DNA of 64,000 nt from Magallana gigas. Lineage: Eukaryota. The DNA is taken from the NCBI RefSeq assembly GCF_963853765.1, contig NC_088858.1, positions 29,636,001 to 29,700,000 of the forward strand, written 5' to 3'. Shown here piece by piece: positions 6,001 to 16,700 of this stretch (positions are counted from its first letter, which is position 1; each line of letters starts with the position of its first letter). A program made the position numbers.

Positions 6001-9000
6001 TCTGTGAGGCCGACATTTACATCACGACAGGACTGCGATAAGATGGTAAGAACATATTATTGTCCAATTTATTTATATTGTGTTTACTTTTTTTCTTTAT
6101 CTCGATGTACATAGAATCTTGTAATAGATCTGAGTGTATAGGATATATCATAGTTATGTTTTAGAGTGACGATTTCAATCAATCACAAATTTATGAATGG
6201 AAATGCATGTTCATATTGACAAATTAGCTGTACTGTCTCGTGTACTAAAACATGGCGTCATTGTTTTCAGGGACGAATGGCCACTAGGGCCATGATTAAA
6301 TTAACGTTGTGCGTGGGGATAATCCTCACGGTCAGGGGTGCCCCCCAGAGGAGGGACACCTCAAAAATCCCCCTTAAAATGCCTCAAGTCTCACCGAAAG
6401 TGGTACGTGTTGCTATCTATGGTTAATTGCTATCTTATGTCAAGCTGTTTTTATGTGATTATTTGTACATGTATTCATAAATTCACAATTGTTGATCTAT
6501 TATTTTCTCTTTTCCTAGAAAGATACGTATCTTTGCCACGCAATAGAGACTAGTCAAAAGAACCCAACATATATCAGTACGTATATAAGTAAAGTACATG
6601 TACAGTAGTTAGATTTCAGTAGTATTCAAGCAATGTCCGGGTTTTATGTCCGTAAAGTTAATACTAATAAGTACCAGTACTTGATGTTTAATACTTATAC
6701 ATGTAACTTGCTGCCTACAAAGATTTTACTTTTAACAAAGCAAGTACGGTTTTCTGATGCTAAAATGTGCTCTAGTTCATGTTTATCTGACATCTCAAAA
6801 AGTGTGATGACATGTATATTTTTTCTAATAATTGATGAAATTGAAGTCTATTAAGTTGAAATCAGTTCTGTTTTTCAACTTTCATCAGAGAATTTTACGA
6901 GTATGGAGTTACCTTAACACCTTAGAAACGTGATTGAACAAAGAATTAAGAACTTGACTGTCACATGTATTTTTGTTTTTTATTTAGCCGGGTTTGAACC
7001 AGATGCCAATAAAGACATAGCACATCACATACTGATCTACGGATGCACGACCCCCGGGAGTCGGGATAGCGTGTGGTAAGGCGAGGACTAAGGTTCAAAA
7101 TTGTGTATCTAAAAAATAGATACTTCATTTAGAAAAGCTCCATTTTGTGCATGTATGCTGTGTCTTCTACAGGCCAAGGCAAAATGGAGTAATCTAAGGG
7201 ATGGCTATTACATTTATAATGATATCCCTTTTTAATCTGTATATCAAAATACTCTGGACTGGGACAAAATGAAAACAAAACTGAGCTCATATCTTGAATA
7301 TTTCACAGGAATTGTGGGGAAATGTCTCATACTACAGAAGAATATTCAACTGCAGGGGTATGTGGGAGCGGATCTCAAATTGTGTATGCTTGGGCAATGG
7401 ATGCGCCTAGTCTCACATTGCCGAAAGGTAAGGCATAGCTATTTATATAATGTTCACACTGACATTTCATGGCTTTTCATTTTTTGCTATTACATGTATA
7501 CCCTAATATTAATGGAAAAAACACAGGTTGAGCCAGAAATTCAAACACTGTACCGATTGATGAACTGTAAAAACAAAGATGATTTTGTGATACATGTATA
7601 TCCATGTCGCATGCACCTATGATTCGTTTGCTATAGTAATATGATCTATGCTACAGATGTGGGCTTCAAAGTTGGCGGCGACTCGGATATCAAGTATTTA
7701 GTCCTGCAGGTCCATTACAAGAATGTGGACAATTTCCTTCCGCCCAGTAAGTACTGTATGGACACTAGTCAGAAATACTGTCAACCACACCCAGAAATAG
7801 TACTTAATGAAAAATACAAGTACTGTACATTGAATACAAAATAGTCCAATCAGTTTATTAAATTATATAACGAATCATATCACACACGTGTAAAGTTTAG
7901 CTGTGAGTTAGAAGCAGACGATTATAATGCTCCGTGATCTTTGTTTCAGAGAATGAGAAGGACAGTTCTGGTGTGACCCTCCTAACTACCAGCACCCCGT
8001 GAGTACCCCCCCCCCCCAAAAAAAAAAAACCCACCCCACCCACCAAAAAAAAATTACCAGTCACATATAACTGGACTTCCCATTACCAAAAAGTTACTTT
8101 TCGGTTCTTAATATCACAAATGTCAACCATTTTAATTATGTTTTTTTTTTATTTAGGATGCCACGCTCAGCCGGTGTGTACCTACTGGGGACCGGCGGAA
8201 GTATCCCCCCGAAATCTGTGGGTGAGTGTAGCCAGAACCCCCCTCTGACACTTTTTTTATGATAGGTACTTATAAGTTTAAGAATTCTGACTGGATTTTA
8301 TTTGTGTGTGGTAGAGTACATGGAGACTGCCTGTGAACTGCGCGAGGACAGCGTGATGCACCCCTTCGCCTTCCGAACACACGCCCACACACACGGTAAG
8401 TTAAACAGGTGTAATATAATGATAGTTTTTTCATTGTTACATATGAATACATATATACGGAAATCTGACGGGATATTGTTGGTGATTTAGGTGAAGTGAC
8501 CGCCGGATATCGTATCAGAGACGGGAAATGGACAGAAATCGGCAGAATGAGCCCCCACAAACCACAGGTAAGGCAACTAGTACAAGTACTAGTAATCACT
8601 CTGATCTATGTCACAAACTTATAACAGCTGTATTAACTGAGCGATCTTTTAGTTGTTTTGTAATGGAAGGAGGCGGTCGTGTGTCTTGATATAGGCAGGA
8701 TCGCATGATCAAAAACATATTTAATGTAAAAATTGCACAACTTCATTTACACACTGTCCCTTGATTTCGTGTTTCAAAAATAGTAATGTTAACCCTCGCA
8801 TGCCCAGGTTGACTTAAATAGCTTCAGCAATGTCACATTTACTTGCATGAAAAAAAGTGAACCACACACGTGTGTTTTGTGCGTTTATATGAACTCACAT
8901 TCTTCAAAATACATGTACCCAAACTGAAAAATTTGAATACTGCGTGGTCTTTAAGCTCATATTTTCGGACCGGGTGTAGTAAAAATCCTTTACAATCCTT

Positions 9001-13717: not shown

Positions 13718-16700
13718 TGATAAAGAAAAGTCGTCCATTGAATAACTGTGTCTTTCAGTAAAGTATGAGCCCCACGCCTCAAAACAAGTAGCTCATCACA
13801 TGATGGTGTATGGGTGTGGTCATCCGGGCTCCACGGAGGACTCATGGTACGTAATCCCCTAGAACCTTAACCCTAGGGTATTCTGTCATCTCAAATAGAT
13901 GTACAGCATTATGCAAGCACATCATTTGGATACTTAAGACAGTGGTATTAAAATGAGTGAAAAAATATCAATTCGTGAAATAAGTTCCATATCCAGAAAA
14001 AATGAAGTAGGTTTTAAAATACTTGATAATCGAAAATTGCATTGCATTCACATTTATAAACACGCTTAAATCAGGGAGTGTGGAGAGATGGACGACAGGT
14101 CCGATGACTCGGTATGCCAAGATGGCCAACGAGAAATCGTGTACGCATGGGCAATGGACGCAGATTCACGCGCACTTCCGGAAGGTGAGTAAATTTTCGA
14201 ATTATAGTGATGGTCTACTGAACGTCACAGATGGCTATTCGTAGAGTTATTTTGTAGGTGTTGGTTTCCGCGTGGGCGGAAGTACAAAAATTAAATACCT
14301 GGTCATTCAGCTCCACTATAAAGGTGCATTTGAGGGTAAGTATTCCATATATACATTTATCATCATTAATTTTGCATTCTGCAGTATCAATTCATGATAA
14401 ACTTTGTTAAAGATTTTATTCAATCGTTTTAAGATTCTAAATTTGATGACTCTGGAGTTACGCTGACCATGACTTACACCCGGTGAGATTAATTTTCAAT
14501 TCGAATCATATACTTTTATGTTCATGATACATTTGGGATGTTGATGATTTATTTATGATGTTGATAATATATTTAGGATGTTGATGATTTATTTAGAATG
14601 TTGATGAGATATTTAGGATGTTGATGATTTATTTTGAATGTTGATGATTTATTGTGATATCTGGAAATGTGGTTTTTGTTACAGTTTGAGAGATGACGGT
14701 GTTTCATGATACCTTTTGAAACCCGAAATCTATCCAACAATGTTTGTTTTCATGTATCTTTAAAGACACAATGCTCTGTAATCTGAATAGATTGACTACA
14801 TGTATATAGTTGATTTACCATTACATAACAGCCAGCCTTTGCAAGCCGGATTTTACGTTTTGGGTAATTACGGATACATACCACCCATGATACAGAGTAA
14901 GTACCTGCCGTAATTATTATACACCTGTATATTATTAAGAAAAATCTATGATTTACGTAGCGTTAAACATCTTGTATTGTTGCAGATTTTCACATGGAGT
15001 CGGTATGTCAGTATACCAACTACACTATTCACCCGATAGGATTCAGGACACATTCCCATAATTTAGGTTGTTTTACACACACTGTATAGTCAGAAAAACG
15101 TTAATACTGTTCATTGCAAAGCCTCATGGGTAATAATTTAAATCTAAAACAAATACGATTGGTTGTAGGTGTAGTGACGTCAGCATACCGGATACGCGAT
15201 GGCAGATGGACGGAGATCGGACGGATGTCCCCCCAGCTTCCTCAGGTGCGAGTGTACTCAACAAAAATCAACCAAGAGTACGGTTAAACTCTAAGTGACG
15301 GTAAAGTTAACGAATCATCTAAGACATATTAACAAGAGTCCGTTTTTTTTTTCAATACAGGCTTTTTATGATGTGTACGCCCCGGGGATTGACATTCGCA
15401 AAGGAGACTTGCTGGTACCGAACTTGTACATATTTTCATGCTTTGCATTGGCTATAGGTTATCCCTCTTTGCACAAAGAATGAAAGTTTTCAAAGGCTAT
15501 CTGTTACTTTCATATGAACTACAGCTATGCAATGTTTTACAGGCGGCAAGATGTACGATGAGCAGTGACAGAACGTTCCCCACAAAGATCGGGTAAGTAA
15601 ATTGTATGCATCGTATCATACAATGGGTAAGATATGAAAATCATACACTAAGGTAGCTATAAGTAAGTGGTGTTTATTATACTAAGACCGGATAAGTTGT
15701 GTCTCGATGCTTAAATCGGGTATATTCATACTTTAGGATCGGGTACGTTTTGTCAGGCATACGTTAAAATCAGGATATTCTATAGTTATACGTTTAGATG
15801 GGGGTACCTTGCGTGTTTCAAACCGAGCCGAATCTTTGCGAATACAATAAAACTTTACCCCCCCCCCCCCCCCCCCACCACCACCACCAATTGCCTGGTA
15901 GGCACTGTTAGAGATTGCTAGGAGTTGTCATTATAAAAAAAATGGTGGTAACACACGACAAAGTTTTATTCAACCTCTGTAATATTTGTACACTCTTGCA
16001 AGAATAGTGACCGTAGTCACGTGACCACAGTCACATTTCATGCAGTCAACTGTAAATTCTGTAACCTTTCCGTACATTGGAATTAAATATATAATTTCAT
16101 TTTTTACATTAGCGCCACCAATAAAGACGAGATGTGCAACTTTTACATTCTCTACTCAACGGACAACACCAACACGCTGGACGTCCAATACTGTTTCCGG
16201 GATGCGCAAACGTTTCACTGGGCAGATTACCTCACCTCGATACCCCAGAATGCCAGCAGCACTGACGGATTACCAGTTTTCACACGAGAAGACCCGTATG
16301 CTTGACTCACCTTGACACAATAAACATTAGATAATGCATCACTGATTGTTTTTTTTTCTTTTCTGTTTCCTACCTAGACGATTTATTTAACAGTGCTACT
16401 TGTTTGCATGTTGGATTGGTCATAGAACCTGAAGAACTGAGAGGTTCACAGGATGTTTCACATCAGAATCTTCTAGGACTTTGCGTTAGGTCACGTTCTG
16501 CACGAAACATACAATGTTTTTGCATTTCTAGACATCCTATTATGCCAGGTTGCATTCAATTCTTAAAGGTGCAATAAAGCAGCACACGTTGAAATAAGAC
16601 ACCTCAAAATTGAGCTCATTACCCAAGCTGTGTCTCATTCTTAATTTGATGAAACAATGTGAACAGTTGACATAGCCATTTAGGACTTTATTTCGTGGAT

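What the first reader, a model, noticed from the sequence alone, without database searches (positions are those of the whole stretch)
6277..16305. Tandem pair of ancient, intact, stand-alone PHM paralogs with no PAL
Seen: two complete 12-exon PHM genes 2.8 kb apart on the same strand. They share intron phases (0,1,2,1,1,2,1,1,0,0,2) and seven identical internal exon lengths (88, 49, 65, 81, 77, 54, 50). The introns show no evident similarity and the proteins are clearly diverged (about 14/30 identities in the His-His segment, 20/26 in the YRIRDG segment). Each has its own signal peptide, stop codon and AATAAA. Known: amidation needs PHM plus PAL. Vertebrates and Aplysia use a fused PAM, Drosophila uses separate genes, and Lymnaea has a multi-PHM precursor with one PAL. 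Inference: this is long-retained subfunctionalisation (different substrates or tissues, e.g. neuropeptides versus amidated defence peptides) and resembles the genomic arrangement from which multi-PHM enzymes could arise.
Basis: partly seen in the sequence, partly recalled or inferred. Interest (0 to 1): 0.65.

Follow-up and report, generated by a model that had tools for sequence, protein, structure and literature searches.

The report
Two old tandem oyster PHM genes
An oyster-like genome carries two intact, side-by-side genes for the copper enzyme that starts peptide amidation; the copies split before bivalves and limpets diverged, which is a tidy but not surprising case of an old retained gene duplicate.

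Summary
Two complete stand-alone peptidylglycine alpha-hydroxylating monooxygenase (PHM) genes lie 2,844 nt apart on the + strand. Each has 12 coding exons, identical intron phases and seven equal exon lengths.

One correction: gene 1 has an extra 5' exon ending in an ATG at 6043-6045, giving 13 exons and 400 aa.

- Both copies keep all six copper ligands. Gene 1 keeps 74 of 74 family-invariant residues and gene 2 keeps 73 of 74.
- No PAL-like sequence occurs anywhere in the 64 kb.
- The split is old. Synonymous sites are saturated. Gene-2-type proteins of Saccostrea, scallops and the limpet Patella form a 100/100 clade without gene 1. A bivalve-only duplication is rejected (p-AU 1.7e-5).
- How much older it is stays unresolved.

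Gene 1 matches a transcript-type protein. Expression of gene 2 could not be checked. Subfunctionalisation is untested.

The proposed link to multi-PHM enzymes is not supported. Lymnaea and Gigantopelta PHM domains cluster by species, far from both genes.

Stand-alone PHMs alongside PAM are already known in arthropods (PMC6669573). This is a new member of a known kind, of modest interest.

The parts
5968..6045 (+). Gene 1 5' exon (5' end not defined). It ends with the probable start codon ATG at 6043-6045, followed by donor GT at 6046.
   Evidence: P0151 residues 14-41 align to 5968-6051. Sequence read. P0001 and P0019 begin M-G-R-M.
6271..6402 (+). Gene 1 coding exon 1.
6519..6576 (+). Gene 1 coding exon 2 (58 nt).
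6988..7075 (+). Gene 1 coding exon 3 (88 nt). Holds the His-His copper ligands.
7309..7427 (+). Gene 1 coding exon 4 (119 nt).
7657..7746 (+). Gene 1 coding exon 5 (90 nt). Holds the third CuH histidine.
7950..7998 (+). Gene 1 coding exon 6 (49 nt).
8157..8221 (+). Gene 1 coding exon 7 (65 nt).
8315..8395 (+). Gene 1 coding exon 8 (81 nt). Holds the R-x-H-x-H motif (substrate arginine and two CuM histidines).
8491..8567 (+). Gene 1 coding exon 9 (77 nt).
9449..9502 (+). Gene 1 coding exon 10 (54 nt).
9653..9702 (+). Gene 1 coding exon 11 (50 nt).
9787..10123 (+). Gene 1 last coding exon (337 nt including the stop). Holds the CuM methionine and a C-terminal extension of about 85 residues that gene 2 lacks.
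10667..10795 (+). Two AATAAA signals after gene 1, at 10667 and 10790.
   Evidence: The longest transcript-type contig of the P0001 cluster is 1,951 nt, which cannot reach gene 2.
10124..12967 (.). Repeat-rich spacer between the genes (2,844 nt).
   Evidence: units of about 170 nt at 11401-12005 and a palindromic element arm at 12603-12686.
12968..13096 (+). Gene 2 coding exon 1 (129 nt). Holds the ATG and the hydrophobic N-terminus.
13593..13647 (+). Gene 2 coding exon 2 (55 nt). Carries Leu at the position of rat Tyr79.
13759..13846 (+). Gene 2 coding exon 3 (88 nt). Holds the His-His copper ligands.
14075..14184 (+). Gene 2 coding exon 4 (110 nt).
14258..14335 (+). Gene 2 coding exon 5 (78 nt). 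Holds the third CuH histidine.
14434..14482 (+). Gene 2 coding exon 6 (49 nt).
14832..14896 (+). Gene 2 coding exon 7 (65 nt).
14986..15066 (+). Gene 2 coding exon 8 (81 nt). Holds the R-x-H-x-H motif and carries Ile at the position of rat Phe237.
15169..15245 (+). Gene 2 coding exon 9 (77 nt).
15361..15414 (+). Gene 2 coding exon 10 (54 nt).
15543..15592 (+). Gene 2 coding exon 11 (50 nt).
16113..16305 (+). Gene 2 last coding exon (193 nt including the stop). Holds the CuM methionine and carries Leu at the position of rat Met320.
16319..16324 (+). First AATAAA after gene 2.

Best explanation
These are two independent, intact genes for soluble, secreted, monofunctional PHM. PHM is the copper- and ascorbate-dependent enzyme that hydroxylates the C-terminal glycine of peptide precursors, the first step of amidation. 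They sit in tandem in an oyster-type (Crassostrea/Saccostrea-like) genome.

They arose by a DNA-level duplication that kept all intron positions. That duplication happened before bivalves and patellogastropod limpets diverged.

Gene 1 is the conservative copy. It groups with stand-alone PHMs of other animals and is transcribed. Gene 2 belongs to a divergent PHM lineage found in oysters, scallops, an ark-clam-like bivalve and Patella. That lineage sits on a long stem and carries three replacements at otherwise near-universal positions.

Shown here: anatomy, intactness, age, and absence of PAL in the window. Inferred: both enzymes are active; the second step is done by a PAL (or a PAM) encoded elsewhere in the genome; and the pair has persisted because the two copies differ in expression or in substrate or redox properties.
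For: Family:
- 6 of 8 exon translations hit PF01082 or PF03712 at E <= 0.01. The two last exons score above the curated cut-off; the four N-domain hits (18-21 bits) fall below the 30-bit cut-off for a whole protein.
- P0001 matches rat PHM structures at E 7e-67.

Gene models:
- 22 of 22 coding introns are GT..AG with identical phases.
- Gene 1 equals transcript-type protein P0001 at 387 of 389 whole-codon residues. That cluster has 119 member sequences on 18 contigs, the longest 1,951 nt. Partly spliced forms exist (P0019).

Intactness:
- Of 74 columns invariant in a 9-protein alignment, gene 1 keeps 71 in whole codons and gene 2 keeps 70.
- The 3 remaining columns in each gene are split codons, and they also match.
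- Gene 2 has a single Ala-to-Val change.
- Copper ligands (H107, H108, H172, H242, H244, M314; numbering from PMC6123673 passages) and the substrate arginine R240 (PMC12164859 passages) are present in both.

Stand-alone status:
- 5 PAL-bearing queries gave 32, 27, 23, 11 and 10 HSPs. All lay inside 6200-16400 and 0 lay elsewhere.
- No hydrophobic segment occurs beyond residue 40 in the proxies P0001 and P0005.

Age:
- Of 65 identical residues with degenerate codons, 18 share the codon and 21 share the third base.
- No intron similarity.
- The gene-2-type clade has 100/100 support with a stem of 0.64. Gene 1 lies in a separate 16-row clade (97/98).
- A tree holding the six bivalve rows together without Patella is 135 log-likelihood units worse, p-AU 1.7e-5.

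Divergence of the gene 2 lineage: 3 diagnostic columns (others 59/60 Tyr, 62/63 Phe, 60/62 Met), against 0 for the 7-row gene 1 group. The window's gene 2 shows all three.
Against: - No near-identical protein for gene 2 was found when its last exon was searched among longer proteins. The best hit was Saccostrea at 78%, with 6 hits among 14 candidates. The same kind of search for gene 1 returned a 100% transcript-type match. Transcription of gene 2 in this species is therefore unshown.
Its placement rests on exon-by-exon identity to P0005 (268/334) and on the three shared diagnostic residues.
- A tree with the oyster gene 1 pair and the five gene-2-type rows as one clade is not rejected (p-AU 0.236). 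The duplication could be anything from just before the bivalve-limpet split to much older.
- The groups for both AU tests were chosen after the first tree had been seen.
- Enzyme activity, PAL or PAM elsewhere in the genome, and any division of labour are all inferred.
Confidence: 0.8

Rival explanations
1. Gene 2 is neofunctionalised. It is still a two-copper monooxygenase but has changed redox behaviour or a different substrate class (for example non-neuropeptide secreted peptides), rather than simply sharing the ancestral job.
For: - The gene-2-type clade sits on a long stem (0.64), against 0.14 for the 16-row gene 1 clade.
- Three clade-wide replacements fall at positions conserved in 59/60, 62/63 and 60/62 other rows. 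They lie two residues before a disulfide cysteine, three before the substrate arginine and six after the CuM methionine. The gene 1 group has none.
- After the shift the clade is well conserved: the window's gene 2 is 223/334 identical to Pecten.
Against: - All six copper ligands, R240 and the C-N-x-Y motif after the CuM methionine are unchanged.
- The replacements are conservative hydrophobic swaps.
- No structure coordinates or assays were available to show an effect.
- The mechanistic role of rat Tyr79 is recalled only. It was not found in the two mechanism papers searched.
Confidence: 0.15
2. Gene 2 is silent or beginning to decay in this species. It would be an intact-looking relic, not a working gene.
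For: No identical or near-identical protein was found in the 5.8-billion-protein collection with the gene 2 last exon, although gene 1 has a well-populated transcript-type cluster. Some donors are weak (GTTGTT, GTGCGA, GTACCG).
Against: - All 12 exons are open and 11 of 11 introns are GT..AG.
- 73 of 74 invariant residues are kept when split codons are counted.
- Identity to Saccostrea is 80%.
- Orthologues are kept in scallops and a limpet. P0006 lies on a 1,425-nt contig, which suggests a spliced transcript in another bivalve.
Confidence: 0.07
3. The two genes are one transcription unit that yields a two-PHM precursor, or a read-through fusion. This would be an oyster counterpart of the multi-PHM enzymes.
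For: Same strand and only 2.8 kb apart. Proteins with 2 to 4 PHM domains exist in Lymnaea, Gigantopelta, Nematostella and Lepeophtheirus.
Against: - The gene 1 stop is shared with the C. virginica protein and with P0001.
- The longest P0001-cluster contig (1,951 nt) minus 1,203 nt of CDS and at least 75 nt of 5' exon leaves at most about 670 nt of 3' UTR. That ends near the AATAAA at 10667 or 10790, about 2.2 kb short of gene 2 (arithmetic is mine).
- Gene 2 has its own ATG and hydrophobic N-terminus.
- Among the best 120 of 642 proteins of 701-2000 aa, none exceeded 51% identity to P0001. A fusion would have topped the list.
- The spacer is repeat-rich.
Confidence: 0.03
4. The pair is a recent, lineage-specific duplicate, an assembly duplication, or has been homogenised by gene conversion.
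For: Tandem position and identical exon-intron architecture.
Against: - 40% protein identity and nucleotide identity of 41-67% in the equal-length exons.
- Third bases match in 21 of 65 identical residues.
- No intron similarity.
- A bivalve-only clade is rejected at p-AU 1.7e-5.
Confidence: 0.01

Closest known systems
Monofunctional PHM (PHMm) of 'dual amidation systems' in scorpions, other arachnids and crustaceans, and the stand-alone PHM of insects (PMC6669573, passages read)
   Same: - A stand-alone gene for a protein of about 340-400 aa, with an N-terminal signal-like segment and the PHM catalytic core only.
- No PAL, no membrane span, no cytosolic domain.
- In the tree both oyster-type genes fall in a 41-row clade (95/91) of mostly stand-alone PHMs, which also holds a nematode row and a millipede row. 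That clade is separate from the PHM domains of vertebrate, cnidarian and gastropod PAMs.
   Different: - Here there are two such genes, adjacent, and they diverged before the bivalve-limpet split.
- One of them belongs to a divergent lineage so far seen only in named molluscs.
- Whether the oyster also has PAM and PALm (a true dual system) could not be tested.
Rat PHM catalytic core (PDB 1PHM, 1OPM, 1SDW)
   Same: - The gene 1 proxy aligns over residues 30-309 at E 7e-67.
- All six copper ligands, R240 and eight cysteines are conserved in both oyster genes.
   Different: - About 41-46% identity.
- The cysteine at rat position 186 (K-D-C-S-G-V in the alignment) is Ser or Asp in both oyster genes and in all 9 aligned stand-alone PHMs. 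One of the five rat disulfides is therefore probably missing. The pairing C47-C186 is recalled, not checked.
- Gene 2 also replaces rat Tyr79, Phe237 and Met320.
Lymnaea stagnalis LPAM (alpha-amidating enzyme 1, 1,951 aa) and the Gigantopelta aegis PAM B-like protein (1,432 aa)
   Same: Molluscan amidating enzymes with more than one PHM unit per locus: 4 and 3 PHM domains.
   Different: - Their PHM units lie in one reading frame with a PAL (NHL) domain.
- The units are each other's closest relatives within a species (Lymnaea 100/100).
- They lie across a 100/93 branch from the 54 rows that include both oyster-type genes.
- The oyster genes are separate transcription units and are far more diverged from each other.
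Bifunctional PAM of vertebrates and Aplysia
   Same: Same first-step catalytic domain.
   Different: - No PAL domain anywhere in the 64 kb.
- No hydrophobic segment after residue 40 in the proxies.

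Membership tests
Peptidylglycine alpha-hydroxylating monooxygenase (copper type II ascorbate-dependent monooxygenase family) | Both Pfam domains, Cu2_monooxygen (PF01082) and Cu2_monoox_C (PF03712) | tested here: met
   Exon by exon, 3 of 4 tested exons of each gene hit one of the two families. 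Only the last exons score above the curated cut-off. Proxies P0001 and P0005 carry both domains in the precomputed annotation. All 12 exons of each gene align to full-length PHMs.
Peptidylglycine alpha-hydroxylating monooxygenase (copper type II ascorbate-dependent monooxygenase family) | CuH ligands: three histidines (rat H107, H108, H172) | tested here: met
   H-H in exon 3 and Q-x-H-Y in exon 5 of both genes. These columns are invariant in alignment A1. Numbering from PMC6123673.
Peptidylglycine alpha-hydroxylating monooxygenase (copper type II ascorbate-dependent monooxygenase family) | CuM ligands: two histidines and a methionine (rat H242, H244, M314) | tested here: met
   T-H-x-H in exon 8 and D-E-M-C in exon 12 of both genes. 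Numbering from PMC6123673.
Peptidylglycine alpha-hydroxylating monooxygenase (copper type II ascorbate-dependent monooxygenase family) | Arginine that salt-bridges the substrate's C-terminal carboxylate (rat R240) | tested here: met
   F-R-T-H in both genes. Role from PMC12164859 passages. N316 and Y318 equivalents (C-N-F-Y) are also present; their role is recalled.
Peptidylglycine alpha-hydroxylating monooxygenase (copper type II ascorbate-dependent monooxygenase family) | Entry into the secretory pathway (signal peptide) | tested here: inconclusive
   A hydrophobic N-terminal stretch in both (Kyte-Doolittle 11-residue mean 2.68 and 2.35). No signal-peptide predictor was available.
Peptidylglycine alpha-hydroxylating monooxygenase (copper type II ascorbate-dependent monooxygenase family) | Hydroxylation of glycine-extended peptides | not testable with these tools
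   Needs an enzyme assay.
Bifunctional PAM | A PAL (NHL-repeat lyase) domain downstream of PHM in the same gene | tested here: not met
   tblastn with 5 PAL-bearing proteins at E <= 1 gave 0 HSPs outside the two PHM genes. All query ranges hit lay in the PHM parts. Both genes end in stop codons shared with database orthologues.
Bifunctional PAM | A membrane-spanning segment and a cytosolic tail | tested here: not met
   The highest 19-residue hydropathy beyond residue 40 is 0.71 (P0001) and 0.62 (P0005).
Multi-PHM amidating enzyme precursor (Lymnaea LPAM type) | Several PHM domains in one reading frame with one PAL | tested here: not met
   There are two separate ORFs with a 2,844-nt repeat-rich spacer. 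No fused protein appears among the best 120 of 642 long hits. The domains are not related to LPAM domains in the tree.
Dual amidation system (PAM plus PHMm plus PALm in one genome) | Coexistence of a stand-alone PHM with PAM and stand-alone PAL genes | not testable with these tools
   No eukaryotic genome collection was available. No bivalve PAM appeared among the best 120 of 642 long hits, but that list was dominated by fish, so it is uninformative.

The most novel reading that the evidence does not exclude
The gene-2-type enzyme is a functionally shifted PHM lineage shared by bivalves and limpets. It has lost the near-universal tyrosine next to the CuH-side disulfide (rat Tyr79) and two other near-universal residues. 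It has stayed physically linked to the canonical stand-alone PHM since before bivalves and gastropods diverged (Cambrian or earlier; date recalled). The two neighbours serve different peptide classes or tissues. If so, molluscs would run at least two distinct first-step amidation enzymes.
Probability: 0.25. Interest if true: 0.5.

Novelty: new member of a known kind. Interest (0 to 1): 0.3.

Why it matters
C-terminal amidation switches on many neuropeptides and some defence peptides. How animals partition its first step among enzymes is known in detail for only a few lineages.

This locus shows that oysters carry two old, diverged, apparently functional stand-alone PHM genes side by side. It also shows that one of them represents a PHM lineage shared by bivalves and a limpet, which I could not find discussed in print. 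Seven full-text searches returned no paper on bivalve PHM paralogues. The library lacks most subscription journals, and Attenborough et al. 2012 and Ul-Hasan et al. 2013 were not held.

This gives a clean natural pair for testing what the near-universal Tyr79, Phe237 and Met320 positions do. It does not change the picture of how amidation works, and stand-alone PHMs beside PAM are already known in arthropods.

Tried and rejected
- **Organism names.** The listing of cluster members, used to get names for the unnamed representatives, was answered 'shared database is switched off' twice. The taxa of 40 of the 58 proteins in the careful tree stay unknown (18 carry an organism name).
- **Protein atlas.** The look-ups for P0005 and P0001 gave only family-level agreement (peptidylglycine monooxygenase clusters, score 0.97) and nothing on lineage.
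- **Long-protein search.** It was meant to find an oyster PAM or a fused gene 1-gene 2 form. It returned mostly fish PAMs in its best 120 of 642. This is useful against a fusion but uninformative about an oyster PAM.
- **Literature.**
  - Seven searches found no treatment of bivalve PHM paralogues.
  - The PAM review PMC6529398 has 0 occurrences of the six terms tried.
  - The coral skeletome, mussel myticalin, cephalopod venom, bivalve monoamine and cnidarian review papers mention PAM or PHM only in passing.
  - An eighth search and term searches in two mechanism papers found no occurrence of Y79/Tyr79.
- **Recent or bivalve-specific duplication.** Considered and rejected.
- **Assembly artefact.** Considered and rejected, given 40% identity.
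- **Pre-protostome date for the duplication.** I could not establish it. The five sub-clades of the stand-alone clade are unresolved (forks under 80), and the AU test does not reject a gene 1 plus gene 2 clade.
- **Joined spliced models.** I did not build one for either gene. Searches were made exon by exon or with database proteins as proxies. No fold, complex or family tree includes the window's own full-length proteins.

Full report
**1. What is there**

The window has no N and is about 35% G+C. Stop-to-stop frames between 6.2 and 16.3 kb on the + strand show two series of short open stretches with PHM-like motifs. Six of eight exon translations sent to Pfam hit Cu2_monooxygen or Cu2_monoox_C. 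The two exon-9 pieces hit nothing.

A search with the last exon of the first gene among longer proteins returned:
- P0001, a 400-aa protein at 100% identity. It has no source name, 119 member sequences, 18 contigs and a longest contig of 1,951 nt.
- 'probable peptidylglycine alpha-hydroxylating monooxygenase 1 isoform X2' of Crassostrea virginica, at 90%.

The same search with the last exon of the second gene returned 'peptidylglycine alpha-hydroxylating monooxygenase-like' proteins:
- Saccostrea cucullata (78%)
- Pecten maximus (65%)
- Ylistrum balloti (63%)
- a Patella caerulea protein (60%)
- an unnamed 366-aa protein
- a Tegillarca fragment

Nothing closer than 78% was found. The source is therefore an oyster of the Crassostrea/Saccostrea kind. 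I did not try to name it further.

**2. Gene models**

Each model was worked out by aligning full-length database proteins to the window. I then searched for GT/AG pairs that keep the reference reading frame on both sides.

| | Gene 1 | Gene 2 |
|---|---|---|
| Coding exon 1 | 6277-6402 | 12968-13096 |
| 2 | 6519-6576 | 13593-13647 |
| 3 | 6988-7075 | 13759-13846 |
| 4 | 7309-7427 | 14075-14184 |
| 5 | 7657-7746 | 14258-14335 |
| 6 | 7950-7998 | 14434-14482 |
| 7 | 8157-8221 | 14832-14896 |
| 8 | 8315-8395 | 14986-15066 |
| 9 | 8491-8567 | 15169-15245 |
| 10 | 9449-9502 | 15361-15414 |
| 11 | 9653-9702 | 15543-15592 |
| 12 | 9787-10123 | 16113-16305 |

All 22 introns are GT..AG. The phases are 0,1,2,1,1,2,1,1,0,0,2 in both genes. 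Seven internal exons have the same length.

One addition: transcript-type proteins P0001 and P0019 start M-G-R-M, and P0151 aligns to 5968-6051. The sequence shows ATG at 6043-6045, then GTAAGA, and an acceptor AG at 6269-6270. Gene 1 thus has a 5' exon that supplies the first ATG, in a better context (A at -3, G at +4) than the ATG at 6277. The protein is 400 aa.

P0019 runs from exon 5 into intron 5. P0151 lacks eight residues at the end of exon 2. Both point to real transcripts of gene 1.

**3. Are both intact?**

An alignment of nine stand-alone PHMs (A1) has 74 invariant columns.
- Gene 1 keeps 71 in whole codons and gene 2 keeps 70.
- The other three columns in each gene are split codons, and these also match.
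- Gene 2 has one Ala-to-Val change.

The following are present in both genes:
- the three CuH histidines
- the two CuM histidines and the methionine
- the substrate arginine
- eight cysteines

P0001 aligns with rat PHM structures at E 7e-67. Each gene starts with a hydrophobic stretch. Neither proxy has a later hydrophobic segment. This fits soluble secreted enzymes, but no signal-peptide program was available.

Gene 1 has a C-terminal extension of about 85 residues that gene 2 lacks.

**4. No PAL here**

Five proteins that carry a PAL domain were run against the whole window by tblastn at E <= 1: Lymnaea LPAM, Gigantopelta PAM, Nematostella PAM A, Lepeophtheirus PAM B and Danio PAM. All 103 HSPs (32+27+23+11+10) lie inside 6200-16400 and come from the PHM parts. 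None lies elsewhere.

The rest of the window holds:
- a 33-nt minisatellite
- a reverse-transcriptase ORF
- immunoglobulin-domain exons on the other strand
- dispersed repeats

Whether PAL or PAM genes lie elsewhere in the genome could not be checked.

**5. Age**

The two genes share 157 of 393 whole-codon residues. In the seven equal-length exons 41-67% of bases match. Genomic blastn finds only two exon-exon matches.

In the six equal-length exons that align without gaps, 68 of 123 residues are identical. Of the 65 identical residues with degenerate codons, only 18 use the same codon and 21 the same third base. That is roughly chance level.

For a tree I took PHM-domain stretches covering at least 240 profile positions from two sets:
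- 20 named or seed proteins
- the unnamed representatives P0011-P0059 from a full HMMER scan (971 proteins at E <= 1e-10; best 150 listed)

Eight proteins were left out. P0019, P0021, P0027, P0032, P0052, P0054 and P0059 were too short. P0171 was left out by choice (another Lepeophtheirus PAM; its third piece was also too short). The two P0045 rows were dropped after the quick tree flagged a 4.64 end branch on the first of them.

The window's genes are represented by proxies: P0001 for gene 1 (387/389 identical) and P0005 for gene 2 (268/334).

In the careful tree (68 rows, 322 columns, LG+C20+F+G4):
- The five gene-2-type rows form a clade with 100/100 support on a stem of 0.64.
- The oyster gene 1 pair lies in a different 16-row clade (97/98).
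- Both belong to a 41-row clade (95/91) of mostly stand-alone PHMs, which also holds a nematode row and a millipede row.
- The order of sub-clades within that clade is unresolved.

AU tests:
- Holding the six bivalve rows together without Patella costs 135 log-likelihood units, p-AU 1.7e-5.
- Holding the gene 1 pair with all five gene-2-type rows costs 18.8 units and is not rejected, p 0.236.

So the duplication predates the bivalve-limpet split. How much earlier is open.

Caveats:
- The test groups were chosen after a tree had been seen.
- P0006 is taken as bivalve only because its C-terminus is nearly the same as the Tegillarca fragment (by eye).

**6. A shifted lineage**

In the tree alignment, three columns have one residue in all five gene-2-type rows and a different residue in nearly all the others:

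| Gene-2-type residue | Others | Rat position |
|---|---|---|
| Leu | Tyr in 59/60 | 79 |
| Ile | Phe in 62/63 | 237 |
| Leu | Met in 60/62 | 320 |

The same count for a 7-row gene 1 group is 0. The rat positions were derived from the alignment and the ligand numbering in PMC6123673. The window's gene 2 has all three replacements.

Together with the long stem, this suggests a change of properties after the duplication, followed by conservation. What the change does is not shown. The mechanistic role of Tyr79 is only recalled; it was not found in the papers searched.

**7. Relation to multi-PHM enzymes**

Proteins with several PHM domains plus PAL exist in Lymnaea (4 domains), Gigantopelta (3), Nematostella (2) and Lepeophtheirus (2). 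Three unnamed records (P0016, P0018, P0045) also have 2 each.

In the tree, the copies within one protein group with one another (Lymnaea 100/100). The 14 rows of Nematostella, Lepeophtheirus, Gigantopelta, Lymnaea, P0018 and the single-PHM P0043 lie across a 100/93 branch from everything else, including both oyster-type genes. P0016's two domains lie on the other side of that branch, paired with each other (100/100). The multi-PHM enzymes were therefore not built from paralogues of the gene 1 / gene 2 kind.

A fused oyster form is also unlikely:
- No long protein exceeded 51% identity to P0001 among the best 120 of 642.
- The longest gene 1 transcript-type contig cannot reach gene 2.

**8. 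Comparison with what is known**

Stand-alone PHM and PAL genes are the rule in insects. A 'dual system' of PAM plus monofunctional PHM and PAL, encoded by separate paralogous genes, is described for scorpions, other arachnids and crustaceans. Aplysia and Conus have bifunctional PAM, and Lymnaea has the four-PHM precursor (PMC6669573, passages read).

The oyster genes fit the monofunctional type. What is added here:
- There are two of them in tandem.
- They are old.
- One represents a divergent lineage shared by bivalves and a limpet.

Automatic annotation already names orthologues of both in other molluscs. I found no paper discussing them. The library misses most subscription journals, two relevant papers were not held, and supplements were closed.

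**9. What stayed unchecked**

- Expression of gene 2
- PAL or PAM elsewhere in the genome
- Synteny in other molluscs
- dN/dS
- Organism names of the unnamed tree rows
- Enzyme activity
- The closed collections (metagenome and viral contigs), which were not used and are not relevant to a mollusc locus

**10. Verdict**

Subfunctionalisation is a reasonable but untested guess, and a functional shift in gene 2 is an equally live alternative. The multi-PHM link is not supported. This is a new member of a known kind, interest about 0.3.

Noticed in passing
window 5968-6045 and 6269-6271: Gene 1 has an upstream exon whose last three bases are an ATG in good context, spliced to 6271. The start codon is thus separated from the rest of the CDS by a 225-nt phase-0 intron. 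Whether gene 2 has a matching 5' exon is unknown.
   Followed up: partly
window 7747-7790 (gene 1 intron 5) and 6553-6576 (end of exon 2): Database proteins of unnamed origin look like variant transcripts of gene 1. P0019 reads from exon 5 into intron 5 and stops. P0151 lacks eight residues at the end of exon 2 and is open through the 5' exon.
   Followed up: partly
tree rows from P0014, P0018, P0035, P0043, P0160, P0161: PHM domains of multi-PHM PAMs from a sea anemone, a copepod and two gastropods, plus the single-PHM P0043, sit together on one side of a 100/93 branch. They are apart from single-PHM PAMs of cnidarians and vertebrates, and the copies cluster by species. This may be an old separate PAM lineage prone to internal duplication, or concerted evolution. 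The tree is unrooted.
   Followed up: partly
window 2060-3027: A 33-nt minisatellite of about 29 copies (82-86% matches). It coincides with the strongest GC skew of the window (-0.33 in 2001-4000).
   Followed up: no
window 11401-12005 and 28972-29171: The spacer between the two PHM genes holds about four units of roughly 170 nt, with relatives 17 kb downstream. This is probably a dispersed or satellite-like repeat family.
   Followed up: no
window 12603-12686 and 20542-20690: A palindromic, MITE-like element. The arms at 20548-20617 and 20621-20690 are 93% complementary. A single arm (94% complementary to 20542-20625) lies just upstream of the gene 2 start.
   Followed up: no
window 13663-13713 and 14518-14653: A perfect (CT)25 microsatellite in gene 2 intron 2 and a 20-nt minisatellite (6.8 copies) in gene 2 intron 6.
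   Followed up: no
window 26439-28088 (- strand): An uninterrupted 549-aa frame with a reverse-transcriptase domain (RVT_1, E 9.5e-27). Likely a non-LTR retrotransposon remnant or copy.
   Followed up: no
window 32982-33380 and 34428-34952 (- strand): Exons with immunoglobulin-domain hits (Ig_3 at E 4e-8; V-set at E 1e-3). This is a neighbouring gene on the opposite strand, unrelated to amidation.
   Followed up: no
alignment A1 and the alignment; window exon 6 of both genes (7950-7998, 14434-14482): The cysteine at the rat K-D-C-S-G-V site is Ser or Asp in both oyster genes and in all nine aligned stand-alone PHMs. One of the rat enzyme's disulfides is probably absent from this whole group.
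   Followed up: no
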